Source: a virus
Direction: 5' to 3' (one strand)
Virus record (IMG/VR): IMGVR_UViG_3300045988_106194
Length of the DNA: 11,504 nucleotides
In this document: positions 1 through 11,504 of the stretch, in pieces
Numbering within the stretch: the stretch's first letter is position 1
Layout of the letters: the number at the start of each line of letters is the position of its first letter
Notes under the pieces: model-generated
Databases searched by the model: none
Seen by the model: the letters and a program-made list of their open reading frames with translations, nothing else
Told to the model about the DNA's origin: nothing
Made by a program: the position numbers and the translations under genes

Positions 1-40
1 AAAGGTACGCTACCCACCCCCTGCCACGTTCCCCCAACGG

Positions 41-70
41 CTTTTAACATAGTTTAACACAGTTTAACAC
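41..70. repeat. Three tandem 10-bp repeats (CTTTTAACAT AGTTTAACAC AGTTTAACAC), one per helical turn, 41-70 nt from the terminus
   Basis: Read directly from the sequence. Period is exactly 10 bp and the core GTT-T-AAC is palindromic. Mirrored at 11435-11464. Confidence 0.9.
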
Positions 71-141
71 GTGGGTACTGGGTCGCCACTCTACACGGCT
101 GGCACTGGCTTGCACGGCTGGGGCGGTGTTCGTGGTGTTAA

Positions 142-157
142 TGTTCCACGTGGAACA
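142..157. repeat. 16-bp perfect palindrome TGTTCCACGTGGAACA (operator-like site)
   Basis: Self-complementary over all 16 nt with a CACGTG core. The outer arms TGTT/AACA are the same as in the recurring TGTTTAACA element. Mirrored at 11348-11363. Confidence 0.9.
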
Positions 158-195
158 CTTGCCCTGTAACTCGCTGATTTTCAACGGCTTGCACG

Positions 196-239
196 AATTT
201 ACAAATGTAAATTTACAAATGTGAATAAATTTACAAAAC
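196..239. repeat. Tandem AATTTACAAA(TGT) repeats, three copies (196-208, 210-222, 227-239)
   Basis: Read directly: AATTTACAAATGT, AATTTACAAATGT, then AAATTTACAAAAC. On the opposite strand they contain TAnnTTTG-like boxes (TACATTTG at 209-202, TAGTTTTG at 241-234). Mirrored at 11266-11309. Confidence 0.85.
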
Positions 240-342
240 TAAACTGGTGCTGTTGGTTGCTGAAAATTTTTGCAGAAACTTTCACGTGGTTGCACGTTGG
301 TTGTTAAAAATTCTAAAAATGAAAATTTTTTCTCGCTTATGT

Positions 343-373
343 GTTGTTATGTCGAAAATTGTTTGTATCTTTG
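343..373 (+). promoter_or_regulatory. Candidate inward-facing promoter in the left ITR (TATCTTTG box at 366-373, GTTG 19 nt upstream)
   Basis: TATCTTTG fits the Bacteroidota -7 consensus TAnnTTTG. The identical octamer followed by GC also lies upstream of the capsid gene (4660-4653, minus strand). It sits 48 nt upstream of the ATG at 421. Motif match only. Confidence 0.4.
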
Positions 374-420
374 CACCGTGTTTGATACACAATGAATGTT
401 TAACAAATAATATATGTAAT

Positions 421-753
421 ATGGAACAGCAAAAAAATGTTGAACGGTTTAGGCTTGAAATGATAGTTAAAGCCGTTGAAGATGTAACAAGCGACTTTGA
501 CATTTCAGACGCTTTAAGCGACTATTTAGATTTGTTGCGTGACTTTTCGGGGTGTATTGAAAACATACAACATGACTGTTTTTTAACAGAGGGTGAACTA
601 CCCGAAAACGTGTTGGAAGAGTTGAAAGAACGTTACAACACAAACCGCCTTATTGAGTTGGTTTGGAACACTTCACACGTTGAAAGGGTATGCAAGGCAC
701 TGGAAACGGTGGCTAAACAAGTAAAGTATTTAAAAGATAGTATCAACAAATAA
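421..753 (+). CDS. Hypothetical small acidic protein (110 aa), first gene downstream of the left ITR promoter
   Basis: First ATG outside the ITR in the 247-753 ORF (MEQQKNVERF...), TAA stop. About 23 Asp/Glu versus about 14 Lys/Arg by my count. No transmembrane segment and no motif I recognise. Confidence 0.6.
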   Translation: MEQQKNVERFRLEMIVKAVEDVTSDFDISDALSDYLDLLRDFSGCIENIQHDCFLTEGELPENVLEELKERYNTNRLIELVWNTSHVERVCKALETVAKQVKYLKDSINK

Positions 754-765
754 CACGTGTTAATT

Positions 766-1128
766 ATGGGTATTGAAAAAGTTATCGAGAGTTACCGCAA
801 ACCGCTGGAACTCATCAAAGAGGGTATCGGCAATATAGATACCGAAAGTGAACATGGTAAAAGTTTCATTGCAGAGGCTCAAAAGGTGTTAGGCACACTT
901 ATTGAAAACCTGCCAAACGTGCAAAAGATGTACGAAGACTTGCACGAAAAGTTTGAGGTTGAAAAGGACTGCAAGAACGACGCTTATTTCTTCATTCTTG
1001 AAAGTGGCAATTTTTACAAGTACAAGCAATGGCACTTCAACGAAAAGAAAGGCGACTTGCAAAGCACACTTGAAAAGTTTTGGGCTAACAACTTGAAAGC
1101 CCCCAAAGAGAAAAAGGGTAAAAAGTAA
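766..1128 (+). CDS. Hypothetical protein (120 aa) with a lysine-rich C-terminal tail (KAPKEKKGKK)
   Basis: ATG at 766 (MGIEKVIESY...), 13 nt after the upstream stop. The track's 757 start is a GTG. TAA stop, followed by a strong terminator. No recognisable motif. Confidence 0.6.
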   Translation: MGIEKVIESYRKPLELIKEGIGNIDTESEHGKSFIAEAQKVLGTLIENLPNVQKMYEDLHEKFEVEKDCKNDAYFFILESGNFYKYKQWHFNEKKGDLQSTLEKFWANNLKAPKEKKGKK

Positions 1129-1151
1129 GGTTCAAAGATTGTTTCATGGTT

Positions 1152-1186
1152 CGGGGTACTGCTTTAATTAGTAGTACCCCGTTTTT
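1152..1186 (+). terminator. Rho-independent terminator closing the rightward two-gene unit
   Basis: CGGGGTACT (1152-1160) pairs with AGTACCCCG (1173-1181). The stem extends through G1161-T1172, C1162-G1171 and T1163-A1170 to about 12 bp, and is followed by TTTTT (1182-1186). The U-tract exists only on the plus strand. Confidence 0.8.
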
Positions 1187-1196
1187 GTTACCATAT

Positions 1197-1272
1197 TTTG
1201 CCCCTGCTGGCTTTTCTGTTCGTTTGTGGGTAACATATCCACCCGAACAAAACAAACGCAACACGGGGCAAA
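1197..1272. other. Nested inverted repeats in the convergent intergenic region (possible 3' end structure of the leftward late transcript, or a small RNA)
   Basis: The outer stem pairs TTTGCCCC (1197-1204) with GGGGCAAA (1265-1272). The inner hairpin pairs TGTTCG (1217-1222) with CGAACA (1244-1249) and GTGG (1226-1229) with CCAC (1239-1242). No U-tract on either strand. Confidence 0.4.
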
Positions 1273-1277
1273 TTTGG

Positions 1278-2855
1278 CTATTCTATATAAACGCCCTGTT
1301 CCAGTTGTTCGTATATTGCCCGTTGCTCACTGGTTAATATATTAGCGTTTGCAATACTTCCAACGTGTTCGGCTCTTATAAACCCTTTGAACGTGCCTAT
1401 ATAGTCCGTTACGTTGTCTTTGTTCCTGTTGCCTTTGTCCTTACTGGTGTACCACTTCATTTTAATGTAAGGTTCAAGCCCGTATAATAGTTGTTCGTTC
1501 CAACTGTCAGCCCCCACAAGGTTTATAGTGTCGTTTTGTGGTGCTGTGTAAATTATATCGGTGCTGGGTGCAACATCTTCAACAAGAAACACAATGCCGT
1601 TATAACTTAAACGTGCTATGCCCTCACCTGTAACCGTGTTAATGACGTATTCCAGTCGTACCGATTTGCCCACGTATTCCACGGGTACGGAAACAAACCC
1701 TTTGAACGGCAAAAACAACTGTATTTCGCTTTGGTAGTCGGTGTTGTCGTTATTGTGTGCTGGTATCTCCACGCTTCCGAAATCAAGCGTTACACGGTCT
1801 TTGCTGGGTGCTAAACACTCAATGCCCGTTTCATAGTTACCGCATTTTATTTGGTCTGTGCTGCTGGTCGGTATTTCGGTATGTATTCGCTTTATACGGT
1901 TTACATACTGCCCCAAGTCTATAAGGTAATAACTTGTTTCGCCTGCTGTCGTTTCGCTTCTGAAAAAACGCTTTTTCGCAAAGTCTGCAAGGTTATCCAG
2001 TGTTACCCTATACACGTTTATACTGCCGTAATTAGTTCCTATAACGGTAACGGGTACGGTGTCCCCCGAAATGTTTATACTTTCGTAGTCGCCTATTTCG
2101 GTGGCTGGGTCGCTGGTGTCTATGTAAGCCGTTGCCGTGGTCTTCTCATCGGATAACTCAAAGTTCTTGCTTTTGTAGTAGCCGTATTCGTTTCGCCATG
2201 ACAAAACGGGGGCTTCTTCAAACTCGGTGTTTTCGTTTGCTTTCAGTTCCACGGATAACGCCCCGTTTGGCTTCACAAATTCGGGTATAGGGTTCACGAT
2301 GGAACAACCCGTTAAACTCGTTTCCACCAAATGTACACCCCCGAAAAAACCGCTTATCGTTATCGGCTGGGTTCTGTCTGCGTCCGTAATAGTTACCCGT
2401 GCCGTGCTGTCGTAATCGTTCACGGTAATTTGTAGGTCTGCCGTTGCCGTTTCCCCTGCCGTGTTGGTGTACTGTACCCCCGTATCATAGAAACGCCCAC
2501 GGGGGTAACGTCTGCTTTGTACGGTAATATCAATTTTCACGGTGTCGAAAGATACCGTTAATGTGGTGTCGGCTATGTTGTTTATAACGGTCGGTTCGGG
2601 TACGTCCTCGCTTATTGTGCTGCCTGTAAGCGTTATTTGGCTTTGCTCCATTTCGTCCGTTAAAGTGGCTGTTTTCTTGTCGCTGCTCAACGTGAGGGGG
2701 CTTTCCCTGTAATCACCGTAACCGTCCGTATATTGTGCCTTAATTTCGCCCGTGAACTTATAGCCAGTATCAGCCGTTACCGTCAAAGTAACATCGTACC
2801 CGTTCCGTACTGCTGTAAACTGGCTGTTCGGTATGTTGTTTACTACGTTTTCCAT
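1278..2855 (-). CDS. Large tail protein (525 aa): three N-terminal tandem beta-rich domains plus a conserved C-terminal tail domain, probable receptor-binding or distal tail component
   Basis: Last gene of the structural array; its ATG lies 2 nt after the stop of the gp9-N-like ORF. Three domains of roughly 85 aa each start with VVNNIPN / VINNIAD / IVNPIPE and end with ITLTG / ITISG / INISG. The C-terminal segment LPFKGFVSVPVEYVGKSVRLEYVIN resembles the phi29 gp9 segment [25 protein letters not shown] as I recall it. Confidence 0.6.
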   Translation of the reverse strand: MENVVNNIPNSQFTAVRNGYDVTLTVTADTGYKFTGEIKAQYTDGYGDYRESPLTLSSDKKTATLTDEMEQSQITLTGSTISEDVPEPTVINNIADTTLTVSFDTVKIDITVQSRRYPRGRFYDTGVQYTNTAGETATADLQITVNDYDSTARVTITDADRTQPITISGFFGGVHLVETSLTGCSIVNPIPEFVKPNGALSVELKANENTEFEEAPVLSWRNEYGYYKSKNFELSDEKTTATAYIDTSDPATEIGDYESINISGDTVPVTVIGTNYGSINVYRVTLDNLADFAKKRFFRSETTAGETSYYLIDLGQYVNRIKRIHTEIPTSSTDQIKCGNYETGIECLAPSKDRVTLDFGSVEIPAHNNDNTDYQSEIQLFLPFKGFVSVPVEYVGKSVRLEYVINTVTGEGIARLSYNGIVFLVEDVAPSTDIIYTAPQNDTINLVGADSWNEQLLYGLEPYIKMKWYTSKDKGNRNKDNVTDYIGTFKGFIRAEHVGSIANANILTSEQRAIYEQLEQGVYIE

Positions 2856-2857: not shown

Positions 2858-3304
2858 CTATTTATCGCCTTTTATAGTTACCATTATTATGCTGCCTTCT
2901 TCACTGAATAGCCCTGTATTTGGAAACTCCAACTTTTCAAAGTTCGGCAAAGTTGAATAAACCAAAGAACGGGTGTTAATGTGGGTGTCTGCGTTGTCCC
3001 TCTCTGTGATAGTCCCACGGGCTTGCATTATTTCCCTTTCGTAGGTCTTCAACACGTCCACACGCAAAGACAATATAAAAGCGTCCCCCTCTTGAATTTG
3101 TGCGTTATCAATGAAATAATAACGGTTCAGTGTGGGAATGTAACAGTAATTGAACGCTGGAATACCTTTGTAACGGATACGCAAAACGGGGTTTTCCATG
3201 TCGAAATTTGAACGCAAAACGCCCTGTATGTCCGTGGACTGCCCCAACGTCTTATTAACGGTGTTTGGGTGTCCCAAGTAGTTATAAAAATGTATTGTTA
3301 TCAT
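2858..3304 (-). CDS. Tail protein resembling the N-terminal domain of the phi29 gp9 tail-knob protein (148 aa)
   Basis: FNYCYIPTLNRYYFIDNAQIQEGDAFILSLRVDVLKTYEREI parallels the recalled phi29 gp9 segment [47 protein letters not shown]. It sits directly after the capsid gene. TAG stop. Confidence 0.6.
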   Translation of the reverse strand: MITIHFYNYLGHPNTVNKTLGQSTDIQGVLRSNFDMENPVLRIRYKGIPAFNYCYIPTLNRYYFIDNAQIQEGDAFILSLRVDVLKTYEREIMQARGTITERDNADTHINTRSLVYSTLPNFEKLEFPNTGLFSEEGSIIMVTIKGDK

Positions 3305-3316: not shown

Positions 3317-3358
3317 TAAAAAGAACGGGCTGGCAATGTTACCACCGCCAACCCGTCC
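3317..3358 (-). terminator. Rho-independent terminator/attenuator downstream of the capsid gene
   Basis: On the minus-strand RNA, GGACGGGUUGGC pairs with GCCAGCCCGUUC (12 bp, two of them G-U), with a 12-nt loop, followed by UUUUU (plus-strand A run 3318-3322). On the plus strand the two G-U pairs become A-C mismatches, so the hairpin is strand-specific. Confidence 0.7.
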
Positions 3359-3382: not shown

Positions 3383-4588
3383 TTATGCTACAAAGAACAC
3401 AACAAAGTTTTCGTTGGTGTCGTTGAAATAGCCTGCGTCAAACTTGAAATAGTTGTTGAAGAACTCGGCTTTTGCGTTGTACGTGGTTGTTACACGTCTG
3501 TCAAGGTTGCAAACGCCCAAAGCGTCACGGTCAAACATAACGCCAAGAACGCCCGAAACGTTCACCGCTTCACCGCTGGCACTCTTTACGTTGATAGTCG
3601 AAACGCTGGCAAAGTCGTAGTTCTTACCGCTTGCCTGCCAACTCGGTACGGTTTCAGCGTTTGGCAAAAGTACCTGGTCTTTGTTGTAGGTGTCAGAATA
3701 GAGGTACGTTTGTGCTGCCTTTGCAAAGTCAGACAAAAGAACGGTGTGCAACATATCCACGGGGGTAAAACGTTCCTTTGCACCCACGTTGAACAGTGTG
3801 GAAACGGTCTGCATACGGTCGGCATACAGTCCCATAGTGTAAGACGCAAAACGGATAAATTCGGGGTTCGTAATTGCGTCCGCTGCTGTGATTGCATCGG
3901 GGTTTGCCGTTTCCCCGTCTGCTGGGTGGAACTTGTCGTTAAACAGCTTCAAAAGGTTCACGCAACGTACTGTACTGGCTGTTGCGTAGTCGGCTGCAAC
4001 TGAAGCCTTACCGCCAAACGCTGTTTTGTCTGCTTTCAGTGTTTCGGCTACCATGTTGTTAATTGTACGCATAATAAGTGCGTCCGCTTTGATAGTCATA
4101 GACTTTTCAACGGCTGAATAAATCATGCTTAAAAAGCCGTTCAACTGCTCGGCACTGCTGAAACTCTCCTTTACCTGTCTTTCGGTAATTGATACGGGCA
4201 CTTCAAAAGTTACCTTGCTGTTAAAGAACTTTGCCGTAACGGTTGGTTTGTGGAATACGTCCTGTTTGTACTCTGTACCGTCCTGCAAGTTCCACGTGTC
4301 GTTTTCGGTGGCTGCTGGAATGTCTGCTGAAATCTTTTCCAGTACGCTGCCAAACTCCCAAGCGTCCATTAAAACGCTGGGTACTTTACCGCTGTAAGGT
4401 CTGTTTACAAACACAACCTTTCCAATGTGGTTTACCAAACTTTTAACGTAGTTGTCCACTGCGTTGGCGTCGAATACTTCCGTACCCAAGTCCACAACAC
4501 CCGTTAAATCTTCCTGCACAATGTCGGTTTTGCCCAACACTTCATTTGATACGCTGTTAATAAGCGTGTAAATCTGCTTTACTTCCAT
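3383..4588 (-). CDS. Major capsid protein, phi29 gp8-like HK97 fold (401 aa), without the C-terminal Ig-like domain of gp8
   Basis: DNYVKSLVNHIGKVVFVNRP parallels phi29 gp8 [20 protein letters not shown]. The C-terminal GVMFDRDALGVCNLDRRVTTTYNAKAEFFNNYFKF parallels [35 protein letters not shown]. The order portal, small protein, capsid is canonical. Confidence 0.85.
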   Translation of the reverse strand: MEVKQIYTLINSVSNEVLGKTDIVQEDLTGVVDLGTEVFDANAVDNYVKSLVNHIGKVVFVNRPYSGKVPSVLMDAWEFGSVLEKISADIPAATENDTWNLQDGTEYKQDVFHKPTVTAKFFNSKVTFEVPVSITERQVKESFSSAEQLNGFLSMIYSAVEKSMTIKADALIMRTINNMVAETLKADKTAFGGKASVAADYATASTVRCVNLLKLFNDKFHPADGETANPDAITAADAITNPEFIRFASYTMGLYADRMQTVSTLFNVGAKERFTPVDMLHTVLLSDFAKAAQTYLYSDTYNKDQVLLPNAETVPSWQASGKNYDFASVSTINVKSASGEAVNVSGVLGVMFDRDALGVCNLDRRVTTTYNAKAEFFNNYFKFDAGYFNDTNENFVVFFVA

Positions 4589-4614
4589 GTTGTAAAATTT
4601 TTATTGTTAAACAA

Positions 4615-5181
4615 TTATTCGTATATATCCAGTGTTATTTCGCTTACAAGGGCAAAGATAATTTTTTCCTGCCACTTGTTACGCCTTAACTCCATTTCTT
4701 TAACCACGTTTTCCGATACGTTGCCCGTTGTCCCCTGTTGTTCTGTGGTACTGGTAACGGTTTCGGTGCGTGTCTTGTTCTGCTCGCTGGTGTCCCGTTC
4801 CCCGTCCGTGAACATATCATCGTTAAACGCCTTTTCTGCGTTTGTGGTGTTGTCCGTTCCCTGCTCGCTGGTGTCCCTGTTTTCGGTCTTCGTTACCTTT
4901 GCCGTGGTCGGTGTTACTGCGTTGTACTCGGTTGTCATCGCTTCCGCCTGTTTCAGCCAGTCGCCAACACGCATTGAAATGATACCACGCAAAACGGGTG
5001 CTGCCGTTGTCGCTGTCAGTCCCTCGGACAAAGTACGGTTGCCGTACTTAAACGCTGCCACTGCGTCCAGTTCTTCGGGTGGTGTACGGGCAAAAATTGT
5101 TCGGTACTCGTCCTCGAAATCGGGGTAAAAGTATTTTGCGAAAAGCCCGTTACCCTCTGTAAACAGTTCCTTGTACTTCAT
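4615..5181 (-). CDS. Hypothetical structural protein (188 aa) with a Thr/Ser/Glu/Asn-rich central region; scaffolding or head-tail adaptor candidate
   Basis: Lies between portal and capsid genes, the usual scaffold position. Its start overlaps the portal stop (ATGA). It contains an internal in-frame duplication (RDTSEQ twice). No recognisable motif. Confidence 0.55.
   Translation of the reverse strand: MKYKELFTEGNGLFAKYFYPDFEDEYRTIFARTPPEELDAVAAFKYGNRTLSEGLTATTAAPVLRGIISMRVGDWLKQAEAMTTEYNAVTPTTAKVTKTENRDTSEQGTDNTTNAEKAFNDDMFTDGERDTSEQNKTRTETVTSTTEQQGTTGNVSENVVKEMELRRNKWQEKIIFALVSEITLDIYE
4653..4660 (-). promoter_or_regulatory. Candidate late promoter -7 box (TATCTTTG) inside the 3' end of the 188-aa gene, 65 nt upstream of the capsid ATG
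   Basis: The reverse complement of 4653-4660 is TATCTTTG followed by C, the same box as in the ITRs. It is followed about 35 nt later by TTGTTTAACAAT, the same box-then-element order as in the ITR. No convincing -33 element. Confidence 0.3.
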
Positions 5182-6154: not shown

Positions 6155-6177
6155 TTTTCTGCAAAAATACAAATTTA
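6155..6177 (-). promoter_or_regulatory. Candidate promoter for the structural genes in the ATPase-portal intergenic region
   Basis: The minus strand reads TAAATTTG TATTTTTG CAGAAAA, two adjacent TAnnTTTG boxes (6177-6170 and 6169-6162). The 12-mer TTTTTGCAGAAA is identical to 267-278 of the ITR. An alternative sigma70-like reading is TTGTAT, 16 nt, TATATA. The 85-nt gap is the largest non-terminal intergenic region inside the leftward array. Confidence 0.45.
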
Positions 6178-6222
6178 TTTTGTTAAAAGTGTACCGTTTG
6201 CAGAAAAATTTTCGTTTTAACC

Positions 6223-7359
6223 TTATTTTAGTGATATAATGTTGGTTTTTGCACTCGTTATAAGGTAATTTCGGACAATTTCGCCTACTTCGTTGTCTTG
6301 ATAGAAAACCTTATCAGTTGCGAAATATCTGGCTACCTGCTGTTCTATGTAACTGGCATTGCTTATAAGTTTGCGTTTGTAGTTCGGTTTGCCGTTCATT
6401 TCAAGTGAGTAAATAAGGCTGTTTTCCGTGTCCTTAATCGGGGTTGTTTTCATGTGTATATACGTGAAATTCTCGTTACCCACCTGTATAATGTTGCCCT
6501 GCAAAATAGTGTCGTTAAACTGGATATAATAGACAAACAAAACATCTTTCGGGGCATACTTCACGGGCAAATGTGGATATACTGCCAGTTCCCATTTACC
6601 GCCCGTTATCATCTGCAAATTTTGGTTGTCGAAACAAAAGTATTTGTTACTGGCTTTGTGCTTCACTACCGTACTGCAATACTCAACGGCTACCGTTGCC
6701 CCGTGTTCCCCGAAACGGTAAATGTCTATTGTACCCTGTTCCATTACTGGAACTTGCTTTAACCCCATTTCGGTAAAATACGGGCAATACTTGTTTACAG
6801 TGTTACCCAACATGAAAACCTTTACATCGTCCCTTTGTCGTATTATGGTGCTTAATAGGTTCATAAACAACATAAACTCATCGGGCAAATAGTAACGCCT
6901 TGTTAGGAACTCATCAAATACCACGGTCGTAACATTCGGGTAACTGCTGCTTTTTTCGTGTTCCTGCTCGGACAAACAAAAGCCGTAACAAAACGGCACA
7001 TCGCACGGGGTACGCTTGCCCGTTTCTTCGTTGTAGTACGACAAAAACCATTTGTTCGACATATAGAACACCTCGTTAAATTTCCCGTCTGTAAGGGTCG
7101 AAATAAGCCCGTTTGCCGTGTGGTTTGCAAATAGGCTTTCGGCACGTTTGCCCCTCAAATCTTCACGCCAACGCCTAATATATGCCATTTGCTTGCTCGT
7201 GTTAATAAACTGTTCCAGTCCGTAACGTAACGCTGCGTATGTCTTACCGTTGGAACGCTCGCCAAATATCAGATTATAGTCTGCGTTCTTTGCCAGTATC
7301 TCCCCCAAATCGTAAAATTTCGGGGTGTTGCTTTCCTGCTGCTGTTTCTTCTTTGCCAT
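6223..7359 (-). CDS. DNA packaging (encapsidation) ATPase, phi29 gp16-like (378 aa)
   Basis: Walker A is GERSNGKTY. MAYIRRWREDL parallels gp16 FIYVRRYKPEL. SSYPNVTTVVFDEFLTR (Walker B) parallels NAYPNVSTIVFDEFIRE. FMLGNTVNKYCPYF parallels ICLSNAVSVVNPYF. Confidence 0.9.
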   Translation of the reverse strand: MAKKKQQQESNTPKFYDLGEILAKNADYNLIFGERSNGKTYAALRYGLEQFINTSKQMAYIRRWREDLRGKRAESLFANHTANGLISTLTDGKFNEVFYMSNKWFLSYYNEETGKRTPCDVPFCYGFCLSEQEHEKSSSYPNVTTVVFDEFLTRRYYLPDEFMLFMNLLSTIIRQRDDVKVFMLGNTVNKYCPYFTEMGLKQVPVMEQGTIDIYRFGEHGATVAVEYCSTVVKHKASNKYFCFDNQNLQMITGGKWELAVYPHLPVKYAPKDVLFVYYIQFNDTILQGNIIQVGNENFTYIHMKTTPIKDTENSLIYSLEMNGKPNYKRKLISNASYIEQQVARYFATDKVFYQDNEVGEIVRNYLITSAKTNIISLK

Positions 7360-7364: not shown

Positions 7365-9572
7365 TTAATCTTTGAATTTGATACCACGTAAATAATTAAG
7401 ATAGATAACGGACAAACTAAGGCTGTACCCTGTCGGTTCAAGGTGTACCCCCGATTTTTCGTTATAGTCGCACTCGTTGCCTAAATAGTCAAATATGCTT
7501 CCAGTTATGCCGTAATCTATATAAGTGTGAATGTTTTTGCCTGTTGCTTTCGGGGGCAAATCAAGGTAGTTTGTAAATGCGTCAAATATGCCGTTTTGCC
7601 CGTACTTCTCCATAAGGTAGGGAATAGCACATTTTTTGTTTACGCCCGAAACGGTCAAAGATACGGGGTAACTTTTGCCCCCTGTCTTCAATGCGTTTTC
7701 CTGCTCTACCATGTAGCGTTTTGCCCCCAGTGTCTTAAAACGGGTGTAACGCCCCTCATAGTCCCAAACGCCTAACAACTTCTTTACGCCTTTTATTGTT
7801 TTCGGCTGGCACATCTCAAAGGGTATGCCGTGGAACTTGCACGCCTTGCGTAACTTCTGTTCTGCCTGTTTGTTGTAGGTGTCGAAATACGCTTTGTGCT
7901 GGTCGCCCTGCATTAACTTTATACTGTCGGTGTCGCTATATATGTAATCGTCTTTCGCTTCATATATTCCCGTGAATAGGTTACGCCTTGCGTATGCCGT
8001 TACAAAGATACCCCACGGATAAAACAAAAAACGGTTCTTGCTGGAATTGTAGGTATATAGCAAGTTACTTTGCTGTTCGGGTGTCATGTGTTCGGTGTCC
8101 CAGTCCCCGTTATATACGAACTCATCACGGAGGGGGTTTGTTACACACATACCGTAACAACTGTTTAGCATTTCCTTACTGTTCAAATACTCTACTTCCA
8201 TACCGTCCACGCCCTTTAAGGTGGTTTTCTTTTCGTATAGGTGTAATATAGCCTTTACAAACTCGGTCGGCAAATATCCACGCTTGTAACAGTACATCGT
8301 ACCCACACGCATACTTTCCCAGTGGTAAAAGTTCTTTATTATGTGAAAGTCAATATCTGTTATTGTGAGGGCTATTTGTTTGGCTGCTGCCACACGTCCG
8401 TTATTTTCTACCACGTTCTGTTTTATAAAACACTTGCTGGCACTTATCGGGTTGTCCTGTGTTTCGCTGGTGAATATGTTGTTAAACTCAATATCGAAGA
8501 CACAACAGTATTTCGATATAAGAAACTCAAATTGTTTCATACTCTTTACCTGTATGCAAACGCCCTTACTCATCGGGTATTGTTCGGCTACCATTACATA
8601 AGGGTAACTGCTGGTAAAGTCGTAACTATCCACTTCGGGGGTTATCTCATCGGTGTAAATTGCGTTTGCGTGTGTGAAACCGCCTGCAAAGGCACGTTGC
8701 AACATTCTGAACTCATCTAAACCCGTTATTTGTAGTTCCTGCATTAAATTAACGTAGTCCCAGTTTGGCACGGTCTTTCCCTCTTCGTTCTTTGTGCGCA
8801 AACAGTGCTTTCGGCAATACTTGCGTACAAACCCCGTCTTCGTCAAAGGTAGGTTGCAAATGTGCTTCACTTCTTCGATACGTTCCTGTATGTAACACAT
8901 CACTACTTTTATATCATTGATACAGTAACCTATTTCGGCATTTGTAAGGGGTGTTTGTCGGTGTCTTAATAGTGAGTAATCAAGGTCGCCCGTTTTCTTC
9001 TCACACTTGTATTTAACCAACTGTTCCCCAAGTTTAGCCAGTGAGTAACCCGATAAAAGGTAACTACACCGAAACTCTATAAAACGGCTGGTAATAGCGT
9101 AAATAGGTTTTCGCAAATCAATGCTGAAAACCTTTGCCCAGTCAAACCAATTTCGTATAAACTGGAACTCATACGAAAGGTTATGCACGTAGCATATTAA
9201 CCGCCTTTTCTCACCCAGTTGTAGGGTGTCGGCTATCACTTCGCACATTTCCGTAAATTCGTCCCACGTCCTGCCAACTATCACACGCCCGTTAATACCA
9301 AACTGCCAAACGTACATTATAGCCGCCTTTTCCAGTTTTATTTTACGTTTCTGCATAAGCCTTTGCGCCTGTTCGTAGTCGTATGCCGTCCCGTCCTCAT
9401 CACGGTAAAAACTGGTTGTTTCAATGTCAAAGGAACACGGCACATTATAAAAGTGTTCCCCCTTGCTGTTGCCTGTCAAATTCTTTTCATTAACGGATAA
9501 CTCTAAAACGGTGGCTATGTCAGTCGGTTTGTATATTCGGGTATCTTTTTCATTAAACGGTATTTTCTTCAT
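7365..9572 (-). CDS. Protein-primed family B DNA polymerase (735 aa)
   Basis: Exonuclease motifs are ExoI SFDIETTS, ExoII HNLSYEFQF and ExoIII YCINDIKVV. Polymerase motifs are A DFTSSYPYV, B KEMLNSCYG, C YSDTDSIK and KxY LGAKRYM. All are in canonical order and resemble phi29 DNA polymerase motifs. ITR-bounded genome context. Confidence 0.95.
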   Translation of the reverse strand: MKKIPFNEKDTRIYKPTDIATVLELSVNEKNLTGNSKGEHFYNVPCSFDIETTSFYRDEDGTAYDYEQAQRLMQKRKIKLEKAAIMYVWQFGINGRVIVGRTWDEFTEMCEVIADTLQLGEKRRLICYVHNLSYEFQFIRNWFDWAKVFSIDLRKPIYAITSRFIEFRCSYLLSGYSLAKLGEQLVKYKCEKKTGDLDYSLLRHRQTPLTNAEIGYCINDIKVVMCYIQERIEEVKHICNLPLTKTGFVRKYCRKHCLRTKNEEGKTVPNWDYVNLMQELQITGLDEFRMLQRAFAGGFTHANAIYTDEITPEVDSYDFTSSYPYVMVAEQYPMSKGVCIQVKSMKQFEFLISKYCCVFDIEFNNIFTSETQDNPISASKCFIKQNVVENNGRVAAAKQIALTITDIDFHIIKNFYHWESMRVGTMYCYKRGYLPTEFVKAILHLYEKKTTLKGVDGMEVEYLNSKEMLNSCYGMCVTNPLRDEFVYNGDWDTEHMTPEQQSNLLYTYNSSKNRFLFYPWGIFVTAYARRNLFTGIYEAKDDYIYSDTDSIKLMQGDQHKAYFDTYNKQAEQKLRKACKFHGIPFEMCQPKTIKGVKKLLGVWDYEGRYTRFKTLGAKRYMVEQENALKTGGKSYPVSLTVSGVNKKCAIPYLMEKYGQNGIFDAFTNYLDLPPKATGKNIHTYIDYGITGSIFDYLGNECDYNEKSGVHLEPTGYSLSLSVIYLNYLRGIKFKD

Positions 9573-9576
9573 ATAC

Positions 9577-10221
9577 TTACATACTGAATTTGTCGAAATC
9601 GTCCATTATCTTTTTAACGTCCTTTTCCATAAGTTCCACCGCGTTCCAATGGTCGTCCGCTGCCTGCTCTAACTGGTTATCCAGTACGTTTGCAAGGCTT
9701 TGGGCTTCGCTCTCTATTTGGTCGCTAAGGCTTCGGGCTTCTGTTTCCAGTTCCCCCGTAAAGTCTTTGTAACGCATTAGGTAGCGTTCTACAAAATTAG
9801 TGTCATCTATGCTTTGTAACTTCTTTTGTAGGTTCTTTGCCATTAGGTCGAACTCATCGGGTTTAAGGTCGTAGGACTGCATTAAATGCGTGTTGTACTG
9901 TCTTACACCTGTTGCCGTACTGGTAGGCTGTCGCAAAAACGAAATTGCCTTTGTGTACTCCATTTTTAGGGTGTTCCAGTCGCCACGCATAGAGAATTTT
10001 GTGTAACTCTCAACATCGCCCTTTTGCAGTGCTGCAACCGCTGGACTTATTAACCCTGCGTGTTCTATGTTCTGAATACGCCTGTTTGCCCGTTGGAATA
10101 CCTTTGCAATCTCGCTTCGTGCTGCTGGACTGCTTTCCAACTGGTCTAATATCCACTTTTGTAGGGGTTGTTTAGTACTGCGAAAAACGCCCCTTGTAAA
10201 TGCTATTTTACCGCCTTTCAT
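9577..10221 (-). CDS. Terminal protein candidate (214 aa)
   Basis: Lies immediately upstream of the polymerase (4-nt spacer), as gene 3 precedes gene 2 in phi29. It has a basic N-terminal part and an acidic helical C-terminal part. FSMRGDWNTLKMEYTKAISFLRQ loosely parallels phi29 terminal protein FETRAQFNKWKEQASSFTNR. The assignment rests mainly on synteny. Confidence 0.45.
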   Translation of the reverse strand: MKGGKIAFTRGVFRSTKQPLQKWILDQLESSPAARSEIAKVFQRANRRIQNIEHAGLISPAVAALQKGDVESYTKFSMRGDWNTLKMEYTKAISFLRQPTSTATGVRQYNTHLMQSYDLKPDEFDLMAKNLQKKLQSIDDTNFVERYLMRYKDFTGELETEARSLSDQIESEAQSLANVLDNQLEQAADDHWNAVELMEKDVKKIMDDFDKFSM

Positions 10222-10242
10222 GTCTTGTAATCTCGTTTAATA

Positions 10243-10272
10243 ACAAAAGGGGGTAAGCGTGTACCCACCCCC
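10243..10272 (-). terminator. Rho-independent terminator/attenuator between the 120-aa gene and the terminal-protein candidate; also an internal near-copy of the genome terminus
   Basis: The minus-strand RNA GGGGGUGG pairs with UUACCCCC (6 Watson-Crick plus 2 G-U pairs), with an 8-nt loop, followed by UUUUGUU. On the plus strand, 10246-10273 AAAGGGGGTAAGCGTGTACCCACCCCCT resembles the terminal 22 nt AAAGGTACGCTACCCACCCCCT and shares an exact 12-mer. Confidence 0.7.
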
Positions 10273-10296
10273 TTATAAGTAAGACAATACAGTAAA

Positions 10297-10659
10297 TTAC
10301 AAGTCCACAAACGAAACATTGTAACACTTCTTTCCGTGGCTCTCATACTCGTAGATAGTGTAACCTACTTTGCCGTTTTTAATCGCTTCAACGGCTTCAC
10401 TGTCTGCCAGTATTTCACAGGCTGTTTCTGCCATGTGTGAAGGTAGGTTTACTAACTTCTTCGCTTCTGCGTCAATGATAACGGGGCTATCGCCTAAACC
10501 GTTCTTGCTGGCATGTACGAAAATGCCGTTAATCGGGTGTACTACATCGTTGCCCCCGTTGTCCTTACTGTTGAAAATGTCTGCCAACTTGATATACTCA
10601 AAGTTGCTGGTGTCGATACCGAAACCGACTTTGTTAAACTTACTTGCAAATGTTGCCAT
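10297..10659 (-). CDS. Hypothetical early protein (120 aa); candidate abundant DNA-binding protein (SSB or dsDNA-binding)
   Basis: Occupies the position of phi29 genes 5/6, upstream of the terminal protein and polymerase genes. Its 5' leader is nearly identical to that of the capsid gene, and its own terminator follows. No motif I can name. Confidence 0.55.
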   Translation of the reverse strand: MATFASKFNKVGFGIDTSNFEYIKLADIFNSKDNGGNDVVHPINGIFVHASKNGLGDSPVIIDAEAKKLVNLPSHMAETACEILADSEAVEAIKNGKVGYTIYEYESHGKKCYNVSFVDL

Positions 10660-10670
10660 AGTTGTAAACT

Positions 10671-10690
10671 TTATTTGTTAAACATTCATT
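10671..10690 (-). promoter_or_regulatory. Internal copy of the ITR-boundary element AATGAATGTTTAACAAATAA, 11 nt upstream of the 120-aa gene ATG
   Basis: The reverse complement of 10671-10690 is identical over 20 nt to 391-410 at the left ITR junction. It overlaps the last codons (SMNV stop) of the 64-aa ORF. Confidence 0.7.
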
Positions 10691-10872
10691 GAATTGTCTT
10701 TCTGTTCGGTGGCTGTGAACTCTAAAAGCCACTTTTTGAAACGGTTTATCTTCATAACCGCTTTGTCATTCTTGCATACCTCGTTTGTAGTAATAAGGTG
10801 GTTCAGTGCAGCCAGTACCTCAAAACTGTACTCGTCAAACGGGTTGCGTACTTCGTTGTTATTCTCTGCCAT
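10678..10872 (-). CDS. Hypothetical small early protein (64 aa)
   Basis: ATG start 18 nt after the upstream stop, TAA stop, co-directional and tightly packed. No transmembrane segment or recognisable motif. Confidence 0.5.
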   Translation of the reverse strand: MAENNNEVRNPFDEYSFEVLAALNHLITTNEVCKNDKAVMKINRFKKWLLEFTATEQKDNSMNV

Positions 10873-10890
10873 TTTCTTATAAATTAAATG

Positions 10891-11109
10891 TTAATCAATG
10901 TTCGTTACTGCGTTCAGCGCGTGAATTATTTGCCCCGTGTACGGGTCAAAATGCACCGTTTCGCAAAACGCCTTTACATACTCGGCTTTGTAGCGTACCA
11001 ACGTCAAAGTAATTTCACGTTGTGCGTTGTAGTCCTTTGGAACTACCTGTTTACCATTCAAGTAATAAACGTGTTCATTGTTCATATACCATAACTTTTT
11101 GTTAAACAT
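10891..11109 (-). CDS. Hypothetical small early protein (72 aa; alternative start at 11085 giving MNNEHVYY...)
   Basis: First ORF downstream of the right ITR promoter. Its first four codons (ATG TTT AAC AAA) lie inside the ITR. TAA stop. No recognisable motif. Confidence 0.5.
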   Translation of the reverse strand: MFNKKLWYMNNEHVYYLNGKQVVPKDYNAQREITLTLVRYKAEYVKAFCETVHFDPYTGQIIHALNAVTNID

Positions 11110-11504
11110 TCATTGTGTATCAAACACGGTGCAAAGATACAAACAATTTTCGACATAACAACACATAAGCGAGAAAAAATTTTCATTTTTAGAATTTTTA
11201 ACAACCAACGTGCAACCACGTGAAAGTTTCTGCAAAAATTTTCAGCAACCAACAGCACCAGTTTAGTTTTGTAAATTTATTCACATTTGTAAATTTACAT
11301 TTGTAAATTCGTGCAAGCCGTTGAAAATCAGCGAGTTACAGGGCAAGTGTTCCACGTGGAACATTAACACCACGAACACCGCCCCAGCCGTGCAAGCCAG
11401 TGCCAGCCGTGTAGAGTGGCGACCCAGTACCCACGTGTTAAACTGTGTTAAACTATGTTAAAAGCCGTTGGGGGAACGTGGCAGGGGGTGGGTAGCGTAC
11501 CTTT
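11098..11504. repeat. Right inverted terminal repeat (407 bp)
   Basis: Exact reverse complement of 1-407 by manual comparison. It carries mirrored copies of the 10-bp repeats (11435-11464), the palindrome (11348-11363) and the AATTTACAAA repeats (11266-11309). Confidence 0.93.
11132..11139 (-). promoter_or_regulatory. Right-ITR copy of the inward-facing TATCTTTG promoter box
   Basis: Mirror image of 366-373. It lies 23 nt upstream of the ATG at 11109. Confidence 0.4.

What the first reader, a model, noticed from the sequence alone, without database searches (positions are those of the whole stretch)
1..11504. Complete ITR-bounded genome of an unusually small phi29-like protein-primed podovirus
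Both window edges are the two arms of a perfect 407-bp inverted repeat, and everything between them is one coherent virus: small early ORFs, a terminal-protein candidate, a protein-primed PolB, a gp16-like ATPase, a gp10-like portal, a gp8-like capsid protein and gp9-like tail proteins. At 11.5 kb with about 12 genes it is far smaller than phi29 (about 19.3 kb). The only cultured protein-primed podovirus of similar size that I recall is Mycoplasma phage P1 (about 11.7 kb, with ITRs of a few hundred bp). P1 differs in genetic code and base composition. Gene order also differs from phi29. Replication, packaging ATPase and structural genes form a single co-directional array, with the ATPase placed between polymerase and portal. 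There is no visible head fibre, appendage, lower collar or tail lysin gene.
Basis: partly seen in the sequence, partly recalled or inferred. Interest (0 to 1): 0.8.

Follow-up and report, generated by a model that had tools for sequence, protein, structure and literature searches.

The report
Complete Astrid-like mini-phage from gut
This is the complete 11.5-kb genome of a very small tailed phage that copies its DNA from protein-capped ends; phages of this size and layout are already known (the Astrid/Phanie group), and this one belongs to a large uncultured gut branch that probably infects Bacteroidota and has no recognisable lysis gene.

Summary
The window ends in a perfect 407-bp inverted repeat and holds 13 genes of one phi29-type virus: SSB, terminal-protein candidate, protein-primed PolB, gp16-type ATPase, gp10-type portal, short lower collar, phi29-type capsid protein and a two-gene tail knob. 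Its termini (AAAGGTACGCTA) recur at the ends of all 43 related public contigs that carry the motif. In three contigs they are fused directly to ligated Illumina adapters. The ends are therefore real and the genome is complete.

The novelty claim does not hold. Cultured phages of 11-12 kb have the same gene order: Salmonella Astrid/astrithr (genus Astrithrvirus), Pectobacterium DU_PP_III and Acinetobacter Phanie. They share 42-60% protein identity with the window and were reviewed in 2024. Hundreds of gut metagenome contigs are 78-98% identical in capsid protein. A GenBank MAG protein falls in the same 90% cluster as the window's polymerase.

Three things set this gut branch apart.
- It lacks Shine-Dalgarno sites and is enriched 2.7-fold in the Bacteroidota promoter motif TAnnTTTG.
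- Each ITR ends in such a promoter just before the first gene.
- It lacks the CHAP lysin of every cultured relative, and the window encodes no membrane protein at all.

Verdict: a new, genus-level member of a known kind. A Bacteroidota host is inferred (about 0.65). Dependence on a helper phage, as in Phanie, is possible.

The parts
1..407 (.). Left inverted terminal repeat. It holds the replication origin at its tip, repeated elements and an inward-facing promoter at its inner end.
   Evidence: 100% complementary to 11098-11504. Conserved blocks across clade ITRs (A2).
11098..11504 (.). Right inverted terminal repeat. Its inner 12 nt are the first four codons of g01.
   Evidence: sequence read and gene starts.
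1..12 (+). Terminal origin motif AAAGGTACGCTA (mirror copy at 11493-11504). The AAA reiteration suits sliding-back protein-primed initiation.
   Evidence: Almost invariant in the clade. At contig ends in all 43 related contigs. Adapter-fused in L038, L043 and L069. phi29 starts AAAGTAAGCCCCCACCC.
41..70 (+). Three tandem 10-nt units (CTTTTAACAT, AGTTTAACAC, AGTTTAACAC) inside the ITR; candidate protein-binding sites.
   Evidence: Sequence. TTTAACA units recur in clade ITRs.
142..157 (.). Perfect 16-nt palindrome TGTTCCACGTGGAACA in the ITR (mirror copy at 11348-11363); candidate operator.
   Evidence: Sequence. The TTCACGTGGA box is invariant in clade ITRs, with one or two copies.
366..373 (+). 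TATCTTTG, a match to the Bacteroidota -7 promoter motif TAnnTTTG, at the inner end of the ITR (mirror copy at 11132-11139 on the - strand). Inferred early promoter firing inward at both ends.
   Evidence: TTGTATCTTTGC is present in 6 of the 8 aligned clade ITRs; L030 was cut short and L081 has one change.
421..753 (+). g13, 110 aa, acidic helical early protein of unknown function (left-end unit).
   Evidence: ORF and gene call. Homologues in only 4 loci. No family hit.
766..1128 (+). g12, 120 aa, early protein of unknown function.
   Evidence: Homologues in 11 loci. No match in deposited phages.
1152..1181 (.). 12-bp hairpin followed by a T run, lying between the two convergent transcription units; inferred terminator.
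   Evidence: sequence. The overlapping 63-aa ORF 1146-1337 is judged spurious.
1278..2855 (-). g11, 525 aa, distal tail-knob protein. Three tandem Ig-like beta-sandwich domains (about residues 1-270) are followed by a conserved C-terminal knob part.
   Evidence: AF2 pLDDT is 81-96 over residues 1-270. Foldseek finds tandem Ig/FN3 proteins and no enzyme fold. The C-terminal part is 25% identical over 333 aligned positions to the DU_PP_III counterpart. The review models that counterpart as the knob C-part.
2858..3304 (-). g10, 148 aa, proximal tail-knob protein, corresponding to the N-terminal part of phi29 gp9.
   Evidence: Family profile hits the tail knob ('major tail protein') of phage C1 (4EO2, E 0.0055) and 8EGS_Y (E 0.03). 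hhalign to phi29 gp9 residues 91-130 gives P 0.001. 26-36% identical to Astrid, Phanie and DU_PP_III homologues.
3323..3358 (-). 16-bp hairpin followed by TTTTT, downstream of the capsid gene; inferred terminator or attenuator.
3383..4588 (-). g09, major capsid protein, 401 aa, phi29 type.
   Evidence: PF25622 1.9e-53. 58-60% identical to Astrid-group MCPs. 78-98% identical to 80 IMG/VR contigs.
4615..5181 (-). g08, 188 aa, probable short lower collar (tail tube adaptor).
   Evidence: hhalign to phi29 gp11 gives P 0.009 with a shared motif, YFYPDFEDEYRTIF against FNYPIFDESYRTIF. No similarity to scaffold gp7. The low-confidence AF2 model shows a helical base, a long beta hairpin and a C-terminal helix. 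Homologous to Astrid gp7 and Phanie gp7.
5178..6137 (-). g07, portal (upper collar connector), 319 aa from the ATG at 6137.
   Evidence: PF05352 1.2e-14 and phrog_2038 2e-40. Gene call in L119. 43-47% identical to the cultured group.
6162..6177 (-). Two adjacent TAnnTTTG motifs, 25-40 nt upstream of the portal start; inferred promoter.
6223..7359 (-). g06, gp16-type DNA packaging ATPase, 378 aa, with Walker A GERSNGKT and Walker B VVFDE.
   Evidence: PF05894 9.6e-23 and phrog_2150 2e-33. 49-53% identical to the cultured group. Motifs read.
7365..9572 (-). g05, protein-primed family B DNA polymerase, 735 aa.
   Evidence: phrog_1907 7e-71. The only PDB sequence hit is phi29 polymerase 1XHX (E 4e-6). 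BLASTP to phi29 gp2 gives 23% over 502 positions, E 6e-16, spanning Exo II, Exo III and motifs A, B and C; Exo I and KxY were read from the sequence. Long inserts sit where TPR1 and TPR2 lie.
9577..10221 (-). g04, 214 aa, terminal-protein candidate.
   Evidence: Lies directly upstream of PolB. Family conserved from the gut clade to Astrid gp2, Phanie gp2 and K58g2, with invariant S59-P60-A61 and S101-T102 (A1). No detectable similarity to phi29 gp3, so the role is inferred.
10247..10274 (-). 12-bp hairpin followed by a T-rich tail, between g03 and the TP gene; inferred terminator of the right early unit.
10297..10659 (-). g03, 120 aa, single-stranded DNA-binding protein of the type annotated in staphylococcal phi29-like phages.
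   Evidence: tblastn finds 92 Staphylococcus phage records; the best are 37-39% identical over residues 21-114 (E 2e-8). Many of the hits are annotated SSB, including Andhra, St 134 and SLPW. It is the best-conserved small protein of the clade, median 73% identity.
10678..10872 (-). g02, 64 aa, early protein of unknown function.
   Evidence: Homologues in 80 loci, median 58% identity. No significant family hit.
10891..11109 (-). g01, 72 aa, early protein of unknown function. Its start codon lies inside the ITR.
   Evidence: Found only in this phage; L119 is the same genome. Start position.

Best explanation
The window is the complete linear genome of an uncultured, virulent-type phi29-like podovirus. 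It belongs to the Astrithrvirus-like group of about 11-12 kb phages, in a large gut-associated branch. Shown: real physical ends, ITRs, and homologues of the phi29-type polymerase, SSB, packaging ATPase, portal, capsid and tail-knob proteins, in the gene order of Astrid and Phanie. Inferred: a terminal protein (g04) bound to PolB starts DNA synthesis at each end on the 3'-TTT of the conserved AAAGGTACGCTA origin, slides back, and replicates by strand displacement with the SSB (g03). A Bacteroidota-type promoter at the inner end of each ITR drives two inward early units, g13-g12 from the left and g01-g03 from the right, each closed by a hairpin terminator. Internal promoters then express TP, PolB, ATPase, portal, lower collar, capsid and knob genes. 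Unit-length TP-DNA is packaged by the gp16-type ATPase through the portal into a small capsid. The tail is minimal: portal, short lower collar, and a knob split into two proteins, the distal one carrying three Ig-like domains. The host is most likely a Bacteroidota bacterium of the animal or human gut. How the phage lyses the cell is not encoded in any recognisable way.
For: ITR and termini. Core genes. Same gene order and 42-60% identity with Astrid, astrithr, DU_PP_III, Phanie, Entb_47, K58g2 and a Shigella phage. SSB. Knob N-part. Knob distal part with Ig-like domains; the review describes the same split knob for this group (PMC11476376). Lower collar. TP family. Terminators. Large gut clade: 368 IMG/VR stretches encode an MCP relative; 7,545 PolB homologues reach E<=1e-20; 33 gut or rumen MAG contigs; the exact proteins occur in JGI/IMG, ENA and Logan, and the GenBank MAG protein UWI12999.1 is in the same 90% cluster. 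Host signal, Shine-Dalgarno: 0 of 13 window genes have a GGAG/GAGG core (mean anti-SD duplex -1.6 kcal/mol), against 8/15, 9/13 and 5/12 in Astrid, Phanie and K58g2 (-4.5 to -7.1). Across the 88 loci with MCP identity >=76%, 14 of 865 genes have an SD core; L108 and L115 are also SD-less, while nearly all other relatives score -4.5 to -9 (L098, a partial contig, is intermediate). Host signal, promoter motif: TAnnTTTG occurs 27 times against 14.3 expected (0 of 200 shuffles reach 27). It is enriched 2.7-fold across the clade, against 0.55-1.2 in cultured relatives. It is positionally conserved upstream of the TP (70/77), MCP (76/81) and knob (75/81) genes.
Against: The TP role rests on position, size and family conservation; no similarity to phi29 gp3 was found, and no covalent protein can be shown in silico. 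No pRNA was found (Rfam); the ITR does not fold better than shuffled sequence as RNA (z -0.2 and -1.5). No scaffold, holin or endolysin gene was recognised, so part of the life cycle is unaccounted for. The host is inferred from translation and promoter signals only. MAG bin labels are contradictory and no CRISPR spacer evidence was obtained. Some conserved TAnnTTTG sites lie in or at the end of coding sequence, so they may be conserved for other reasons. Read coverage at the ends could not be examined.
Confidence: 0.85

Rival explanations
1. One reading: an unusually small, essentially unprecedented phi29-like lineage whose only size-matched cultured analogue is Mycoplasma phage P1.
For: No megablast match to any deposited phage. 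The nearest classified genus shares only 42-60% protein identity.
Against: At least eight cultured phages of 11.2-11.9 kb share gene order and eight homologous proteins. The group is reviewed in PMC11476376. astrithr (11.6 kb) is cited as the smallest isolated tailed phage (10.1101/2025.06.18.659913). Hundreds of public contigs are 78-98% identical in MCP.
Confidence: 0.03
2. The ITR or the ends are an assembly artefact, and the molecule is longer, circular or incomplete.
For: Perfect 407-bp repeats can be made by assemblers. One other assembly of the same phage lacks both arms (L119, 10,690 bp). Read data were not available.
Against: Perfect ITRs of 222-465 bp occur in independent assemblies from other samples. 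The same terminal 12-mer lies at the contig ends of all 43 related contigs. Ligated adapters abut AAAGG directly in L038, L043 and L069. Cultured relatives have annotated ITRs of 83 and 219 bp.
Confidence: 0.03
3. Lifestyle rival: the element is not autonomous. It is a helper-dependent satellite phage like Acinetobacter phage Phanie, whose capsids become infectious only after binding the contractile tail of an unrelated myophage. Here the helper might also supply lysis.
For: The window has the same split knob with lateral Ig-like domains as Phanie (PMC11476376). It has no fibre, spike or appendage gene. It lacks the CHAP lysin present in every cultured relative, and none of its 13 proteins has a transmembrane segment. 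The review proposes that other Gram-negative members may share Phanie's strategy.
Against: Helper dependence is shown for one member only, and I know it only through the review. Astrid is treated as non-satellite in 10.1101/2025.06.18.659913. The window encodes a full replication, packaging, capsid and neck-knob set. Missing annotation of lysis genes in a Bacteroidota phage may simply reflect poor knowledge. No candidate helper was sought.
Confidence: 0.25
4. Host rival: the host is not Bacteroidota but a proteobacterium (as for all cultured relatives), a Firmicute, or another SD-poor lineage such as gut Melainabacteria.
For: All cultured relatives infect Gammaproteobacteria. MAG bins include Melainabacteria/Gastranaerophilales, Clostridia and others. 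The infant-gut study assigned its phi29-like vOTUs to Firmicutes and Actinobacteria (PMC10159846).
Against: Proteobacterial and Firmicute-associated relatives keep clear SD sites and no TAnnTTTG excess, whereas this clade shows the opposite in every genome. There is no match in 5,426 E. coli genomes, even at E 10, nor in plasmids. Bin labels are mutually inconsistent, as expected for small high-coverage contigs.
Confidence: 0.3

Closest known systems
Genus Astrithrvirus (Salmonella phages astrithr, Astrid, assan; 11.6-11.7 kb)
   Same: Linear genome of about 11.5 kb with ITRs. The gene order is identical: small early gene(s), TP candidate, PolB, gp16 ATPase, portal, about 185-aa collar protein, MCP, about 147-aa knob protein, large knob protein, then a short opposite-strand early unit at the far end. 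Identities: PolB 45%, ATPase 51%, portal 44-46%, MCP 60%.
   Different: No nucleotide-level match. ITR of 407 bp against 83 bp. No CHAP lysin and no small TM protein between ATPase and portal. An SSB of the staphylococcal-phage type instead of the conserved Astrid ORF13 family. No SD sites, and an excess of TAnnTTTG.
Acinetobacter phage Aci01-2-Phanie (11,885 bp; satellite of myophage Aci01-1) and Pectobacterium phage DU_PP_III (11,504 bp)
   Same: Same architecture and split tail knob with Ig-like domains. ITRs of about 200 bp. Core proteins 43-59% identical. The review reports Phanie as helper-dependent.
   Different: Their termini start GGG(T/A)TATCCGCCCC rather than AAAGGTACGC. They carry a CHAP or amidase lysin. 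According to the review, the Phanie distal knob protein has six Ig-like domains, against about three here. Helper dependence is untested for the window. The equal length to DU_PP_III is coincidence.
Bacillus phage phi29 (Salasmaviridae)
   Same: Protein-primed PolB with inserts where TPR1 and TPR2 lie. Homologous gp16-type ATPase, gp10 connector and gp8 MCP, and weak homology to gp11 and to the N-terminal part of gp9. The terminal sequences are alike: AAAG(G)TA.GC followed by a C-rich tract.
   Different: phi29 is 19.3 kb with a 6-bp ITR and a different gene order. It has a pRNA, scaffold, head fibre, appendages, tail lysin, holin and endolysin, none of which was found here.
Rountreeviridae and phage C1 (staphylococcal Andhra, P68 and 44AHJD-like phages; streptococcal C1)
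   Same: The SSB (g03) is 37-39% identical to the protein annotated as SSB in these phages. The g10 family profile matches the tail-knob N-terminal region of phage C1 (4EO2) and of 8EGS_Y.
   Different: They are 17-18 kb, infect Gram-positive hosts, have a single-gene knob and carry tail lysins and fibres.
Bacteriophage sp. isolate 2692_55609 (12,148 bp; cluster 30 of PMC11476376; suggested Bacteroidales host)
   Same: A small phi29-like gut MAG with a split knob, already proposed to infect Bacteroidales.
   Different: The review places it in a different MCP cluster, closer to Amedibacillus phages. It was not available here for direct comparison.
Mycoplasma phage P1
   Different: It does not appear among the 30 listed PolB matches or among the 21 records with an MCP match in deposited phages. 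It was not examined further.

Membership tests
phi29-like protein-primed podoviruses (broad group) | Family B DNA polymerase of the protein-primed type, with Exo I-III, motifs A, B, C and KxY, and TPR1 and TPR2 insertions | tested here: met
   phrog_1907 7e-71. The only PDB sequence hit is phi29 polymerase. The alignment to phi29 gp2 covers Exo II, Exo III and motifs A-C, with long inserts where TPR1 and TPR2 lie; Exo I and KxY were read from the sequence.
phi29-like protein-primed podoviruses (broad group) | Terminal protein gene next to the polymerase gene | tested here: inconclusive
   A conserved 214-aa gene lies directly upstream of PolB and is homologous to Astrid gp2 and Phanie gp2. There is no similarity to phi29 gp3 by profile search or hhalign.
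phi29-like protein-primed podoviruses (broad group) | [quoted passage not shown] | not testable with these tools
   Needs protease-dependent DNA extraction or mass spectrometry.
phi29-like protein-primed podoviruses (broad group) | Linear genome with inverted terminal repeats and a reiterated terminal nucleotide | tested here: met
   407-bp perfect ITR starting AAAGG. The ends are validated.
phi29-like protein-primed podoviruses (broad group) | gp16-type packaging ATPase, gp10-type connector and phi29-type MCP | tested here: met
   PF05894 9.6e-23, PF05352 1.2e-14 and PF25622 1.9e-53, all above the Pfam cut-offs.
phi29-like protein-primed podoviruses (broad group) | Packaging RNA (pRNA) | tested here: inconclusive
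   No Rfam match at E<=1. The ITR shows no excess RNA structure. The Rfam model is, to my knowledge, built from Bacillus phages, so absence is not shown.
Astrithrvirus-like group (MCP cluster 23 of PMC11476376) | Genome of about 11-14 kb with the gene order TP, PolB, ATPase, portal, collar, MCP, knob-N, knob-C | tested here: met
   Window map compared with the Astrid, astrithr, Phanie, DU_PP_III and K58g2 annotations.
Astrithrvirus-like group (MCP cluster 23 of PMC11476376) | MCP similarity to Astrid, DU_PP_III and Phanie | tested here: met
   58-60% identity over the full length. The next group of relatives is at <=33%.
Astrithrvirus-like group (MCP cluster 23 of PMC11476376) | Tail knob split into two genes, the distal one with Ig-like domains, plus a short lower collar | tested here: met
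   g10. g11. g08: (weak).
Astrithrvirus-like group (MCP cluster 23 of PMC11476376) | CHAP-type lysin gene after the knob gene (present in all cultured members) | tested here: not met
   tblastn with four cultured lysins finds nothing in the window or in any of the 80 IMG/VR clade loci. No lysin domain in Pfam, PHROG or NCBIfam.
Genus Astrithrvirus (ICTV; by my knowledge the genus cut-off is about 70% nucleotide identity) | Nucleotide identity across the genome to A. astrithr | tested here: not met
   No megablast match to any phage record. Core proteins are 42-60% identical.
Phanie-type satellite phage | Infectivity depends on the tail of a helper myophage | not testable with these tools
   Known for Phanie only, and here only through the review. 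The window shares the knob architecture and lacks fibre and lysis genes.
Phage of Bacteroidota | Genes without Shine-Dalgarno sites | tested here: met
   0 of 13 window genes and 14 of 865 clade genes have an SD core. Controls from relatives of SD-using hosts are clearly positive.
Phage of Bacteroidota | Promoters of the TTTG / TAnnTTTG type | tested here: met
   27 observed against 14.3 expected. 2.7-fold enrichment in the clade against about 1 in relatives. Positionally conserved, including at the inner end of the ITR. The motif definition is from my own knowledge of Bacteroides promoters.
Phage of Bacteroidota | Direct host link (CRISPR spacer, prophage, proximity ligation or isolation) | not tested
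   No tool for a spacer search was left. MAG bin labels are inconsistent.

The most novel reading that the evidence does not exclude
The whole SD-less gut branch, window included, would be a lineage of Bacteroidota-infecting mini-podoviruses that have shed their own lysis and host-penetration functions. Like Phanie, they would live as satellites that borrow the tail, and perhaps the lysis system, of a co-infecting helper phage. That would make tail-piracy by self-replicating, self-packaging mini-phages a widespread strategy in the gut. Alternatively, if they are autonomous, one of the soluble small proteins or a virion protein would be a new kind of lysis factor.
Probability: 0.2. Interest if true: 0.7.

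Novelty: new member of a known kind. Interest (0 to 1): 0.38.

Why it matters
The window is a clean, complete reference genome with validated physical ends for an abundant but uncultured gut branch of the smallest known tailed phages.

- **Host range.** The contrast with cultured relatives shows how an 11-kb genome was re-tooled for a host with different translation and transcription signals: no SD sites, Bacteroidota-type promoters, and promoters built into the ITRs. It extends the probable host range of the Astrid-like group to Bacteroidota.
- **Lysis.** The total absence of recognisable lysis and penetration genes poses a concrete, testable question. Either the phage depends on a helper, as Phanie does, or it uses an unknown lysis mechanism.
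- **Practical use.** The conserved terminal 12-mer is a handy marker for finding complete genomes of this clade. The results also show that these contigs contaminate MAG bins of many phyla.

Tried and rejected
- **Nucleotide searches.** Megablast of the whole window against deposited phages found nothing. The same query against 5,426 E. coli genomes at E 10, which would also catch perfect CRISPR spacers, found nothing. tblastn of the MCP against plasmids found nothing.
- **RNA genes.** Rfam at E<=1 and ARAGORN found no RNA family, pRNA or tRNA. RNA folding of the ITR on both strands was no better than shuffles, so a pRNA gene in the ITR was rejected.
- **Terminal protein.** Neither the TP family profile against PDB sequences nor hhalign against phi29 gp3 gave a real hit. 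The armadillo-repeat hits are spurious sums over repeats.
- **Other profile comparisons.** The 525-aa family against phi29 gp9, and its profile against PDB sequences, gave nothing. The g08 family against the scaffold gp7 gave nothing. Foldseek with the low-confidence g08 model gave nothing significant; the P68 tail chain 6iac_B appeared only at E 4.8. g03 against phi29 gp5 and against the Astrid ORF13 family gave nothing; g03 was later placed by tblastn to staphylococcal phage SSBs.
- **Host from MAG labels.** Rejected as uninformative. The labels span Prevotella, Phocaeicola, Melainabacteria, Clostridia, Staphylococcaceae and others.
- **Spurious ORFs.** ORFs 1146-1337 (+), 10218-10346 (-) and 247-420 (+, inside the ITR) were rejected as genes. 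They span terminator hairpins or the ITR promoter and are not conserved as ORFs.
- **Unavailable source.** The primary Phanie paper (PMC11264900) is not held. What is said about it comes from the review.

Full report
**Observation**

The two window edges are the arms of a perfect inverted repeat: 1-407 and 11098-11504, 407 nt, 100% complementary. Overall G+C is 43.4%. There is no tRNA and no Rfam match.

Thirteen genes are credible. Eleven lie on the - strand, running from the right ITR inward. Two lie on the + strand, running from the left ITR inward. The two sets converge on a hairpin terminator at 1152-1181.

- DNA_pol_B_2
- Podovirus_Gp16
- Phage_connector (GP10)
- Phi29_MCP

**Are the ends real?**

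Yes, on four lines of evidence.
- Relatives assembled independently carry perfect ITRs of 222, 267, 346 and 465 bp.
- The first 12 nt, AAAGGTACGCTA, are almost invariant in the clade.
- A scan of IMG/VR for AAAGGTACGCTAYYNACCC found 46 contigs. All 43 related ones have the motif within 90 nt of a contig end, pointing inward, and about 25 have it at exactly the first or last base. The 3 internal matches are in unrelated 33% G+C contigs, and about that many are expected by chance.
- In L038, L043 and L069 the tail of a ligated Illumina adapter (..GCTCTTCCGATCT) abuts AAAGG directly. That is what a physical DNA end gives.

The same phage was assembled elsewhere as a 10,690-bp contig, exactly the window minus both arms (L119). 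The window is therefore a complete genome. Its terminal AAA and the following C-rich tract resemble the phi29 end: AAAGGTACGCTACCCACCCCC against AAAGTAAGCCCCCACCC.

**What it is**

No deposited phage matches at the nucleotide level. Protein searches point to one group. PolB is 41-46% identical and the MCP 58-60% identical to these phages:
- Pectobacterium DU_PP_III
- Acinetobacter Phanie
- Enterobacter Entb_47
- Vibrio K58 g2
- a Shigella phage

The next-best deposited phages fall to about 30-36% for PolB and 33% or less for the MCP. The complete genomes of this group are 11.2-11.9 kb (the K58 g2 record is 10.4 kb and cut within PolB), they have ITRs where annotated (83 and 219 bp), and they show the window's gene order. 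Eight of the 13 window proteins have homologues there.

The group is described in a 2024 review as MCP cluster 23 (PMC11476376). The review describes 11-14 kb genomes infecting Gram-negative hosts, with a short lower collar, a tail knob split into two genes, Ig-like domains on the distal one, and a CHAP lysin. astrithr is cited as the smallest isolated tailed phage (10.1101/2025.06.18.659913; 10.1101/2020.03.27.011080). According to the review, Phanie is a satellite whose particles become infectious only after binding the tail of a helper myophage.

**Closer, uncultured relatives**

- 368 IMG/VR stretches encode an MCP relative. The best 80 are 78-98% identical, and most of the contigs are 11.0-12.0 kb with about 44% G+C.
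- 7,545 PolB homologues reach E<=1e-20.
- L003-L005 are the same species or genus, with 90-99% identity in the core proteins.
- The window's exact PolB and MCP are on record in JGI/IMG, ENA and Logan.
- The GenBank protein UWI12999.1 ('MAG: DNA polymerase type B ... [Bacteriophage sp.]') sits in the same 90% cluster as the window's PolB.
- The review's Table S1 already lists many 11-12 kb faecal 'Bacteriophage sp.' genomes in cluster 23.

**Gene functions**

- **PolB (g05).** It aligns with phi29 polymerase across Exo II, Exo III and motifs A, B and C, with long inserts where TPR1 and TPR2 lie. Exo I (FDIETTS) and KxY (GAKRY) were read directly from the sequence. phi29 polymerase is its only PDB sequence hit.
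- **SSB (g03).** It matches 92 staphylococcal phi29-like phage records; the best hits are 37-39% identical over residues 21-114, and many, Andhra included, are annotated SSB.
- **TP candidate (g04).** This 214-aa protein sits directly upstream of PolB and belongs to one family with Astrid gp2, Phanie gp2 and the K58g2 protein. S59-P60-A61 and S101-T102 are invariant. It shows no similarity to phi29 gp3, so the role is inferred.
- **Lower collar (g08).** It shares the motif Y-P-x-F-[DE]-[DE]-x-Y-R-T-I-F with the N-terminus of phi29 lower collar gp11 (hhalign P 0.009). A low-confidence model shows a helical base plus a long beta hairpin.
- **Knob N-part (g10).** Its family profile hits the tail-knob N-terminal region of phage C1 and of 8EGS_Y (E 0.0055 and 0.03) and phi29 gp9 residues 91-130.
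- **Knob distal part (g11).** Three confidently modelled tandem Ig-like domains are followed by a C-terminal part homologous to the DU_PP_III knob protein. No enzyme fold appears.
- **Unknown (g01, g02, g12, g13).** These small soluble proteins sit next to the ITRs and are the most variable genes. g01 is unique to this phage, g13 occurs in 4 loci and g12 in 11.

**What sets this branch apart**

First, translation signals. None of the 13 window genes has a GGAG/GAGG core upstream, and the mean anti-SD duplex energy is -1.6 kcal/mol. Astrid, Phanie and K58g2 have 8/15, 9/13 and 5/12 such genes and -4.5 to -7.1 kcal/mol. The split is clean over all loci. The 88 genomes with MCP identity >=76% have 14 SD cores in 865 genes, and L108 and L115 (68%) are also SD-less. 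Nearly all other relatives score -4.5 to -9; only L098, a partial contig, is intermediate at -2.5.

Second, promoter motifs. The Bacteroidota -7 motif TAnnTTTG occurs 27 times against 14.3 expected, and none of 200 shuffles reaches 27. It is enriched 2.7-fold across the clade and not at all in the cultured relatives. It holds fixed positions upstream of the TP, MCP and knob genes. It also closes each ITR just before the first gene: TTGTATCTTTGC appears in 6 of the 8 aligned clade ITRs.

Together with the gut origin and 43% G+C, I infer a Bacteroidota host with a probability of about 0.65. MAG bin labels are contradictory and were not used.

Third, lysis genes. The CHAP lysin of every cultured relative is absent from the window and from all 80 IMG/VR clade loci. 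The window also lacks the small membrane protein that most relatives encode between ATPase and portal. None of its 13 proteins has a hydrophobic segment. No library recognises a holin, endolysin or spanin.

**How it most likely works**

Shown: real linear ends with ITRs, a phi29-type replication, packaging, capsid and neck-knob gene set, and three hairpin terminators that divide the map.

Inferred:
1. TP-PolB initiates opposite the 3'-TTT of the origin and slides back.
2. The SSB supports strand displacement.
3. The ITR promoters fire inward at both ends to express variable early genes.
4. Internal promoters express the replication genes and then the structural genes.
5. The ATPase packages unit-length TP-DNA through the portal into a small capsid.
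6. The tail is only portal, short collar and a hexameric two-protein knob with lateral Ig-like domains.

Not explained: lysis, envelope penetration, scaffolding, and whether a packaging RNA exists. There is no Rfam hit, and the ITR has no excess RNA structure.

**Rivals**

An assembly artefact and an unprecedented lineage are both excluded by the evidence above. Two real uncertainties remain:
- **Lifestyle.** Autonomous phage or Phanie-like satellite; I give the satellite reading about 0.25.
- **Host.** Bacteroidota or another phylum.

**Verdict**

The window is a new, genus-level, uncultured member of the known Astrithrvirus-like group of mini-podoviruses. What is worth keeping:
- validated termini;
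- ITRs that include the early promoter;
- the SD-less, Bacteroidota-type signature of a large gut branch;
- the complete lack of recognisable lysis genes.

Noticed in passing
window 396-410 and 11098-11109; L004 1-465: The inner ITR boundary lies 12 nt inside g01 (ATG TTT AAC AAA). The left copy therefore forms a 4-codon mini-ORF, ATGTTTAACAAATAA. In relative L004 the 465-bp ITR covers the first 8 codons of both terminal genes. The ITR thus carries promoter, leader and start codon, and the two end genes share their N-termini.
   Followed up: partly
window 390-410, 10671-10691, 4600-4611, 6176-6187: The 21-nt sequence CAATGAATGTTTAACAAATAA occurs three times: in both ITR inner ends and upstream of g03. 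Related TTTAACAA(A)TAAA elements lie 10-40 nt upstream of the MCP and portal start codons. The count alone is not significant (5 against 2 expected; 8 of 200 shuffles reach 5), but every copy sits just upstream of a gene on its coding strand. It could be a leader or initiation-region element.
   Followed up: partly
window 142-157 (mirror 11348-11363); ITRs of L018, L030, L037, L054, L070, L073: A perfect 16-nt palindrome, TGTTCCACGTGGAACA, lies in the ITR. The TTCACGTGGA core is invariant across clade ITRs, often in two copies. It is a candidate operator for an unidentified regulator.
   Followed up: partly
window 41-70 and 195-239: The ITR holds tandem short repeats: three 10-nt ..TTTAACA.. 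units, and AATTTACAAATGT two and a half times. Other clade ITRs instead hold one to three copies of a roughly 55-nt unit (..ACTTTGGCACGGTTTTTGCTATGG..), which accounts for the different ITR lengths.
   Followed up: no
L035, L036, L038, L043, L045, L051, L069, L071 (contig ends): IMG/VR contigs of this clade still carry TruSeq or Nextera adapter remnants at both ends. This helped to locate the physical termini, but it is a data-quality issue in the collection.
   Followed up: partly
L086-L118 (GTDB genome contigs): Whole or partial genomes of this phage group sit in MAG bins labelled Prevotella, Phocaeicola, Melainabacteria/Gastranaerophilales, Scatosoma, Christensenellaceae, Staphylococcaceae, Omnitrophota and others. 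The review also lists Methanobrevibacter bins. This is probably bin contamination by small, high-coverage contigs.
   Followed up: partly
L064, L069, L080, L108, L115: A sub-branch with 36% G+C, against 44% in the main clade, is equally SD-less and TAnnTTTG-rich. Its terminus is AAAGGTACACAAAGC. It presumably infects a lower-G+C host within the same kind of bacteria.
   Followed up: no
window whole length; L084: The window and Pectobacterium phage DU_PP_III are both exactly 11,504 bp. There is no nucleotide match and proteins are 25-60% identical, so this is a coincidence.
   Followed up: yes
L083 and L084 termini: Phanie and DU_PP_III begin GGG(T/A)TATCCGCCCC, whereas the gut clade begins AAAGGTACGC. 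Both have a reiterated first base followed by a C-rich tract. This suggests a different initiating nucleotide (dGMP against dAMP) within one phage group.
   Followed up: no
L105 6795-7214: Among the metagenomic relatives, only L105 (Oscillospiraceae bin, 55% MCP identity, SD-using branch) carries a homologue of the CHAP lysin of the cultured group.
   Followed up: no
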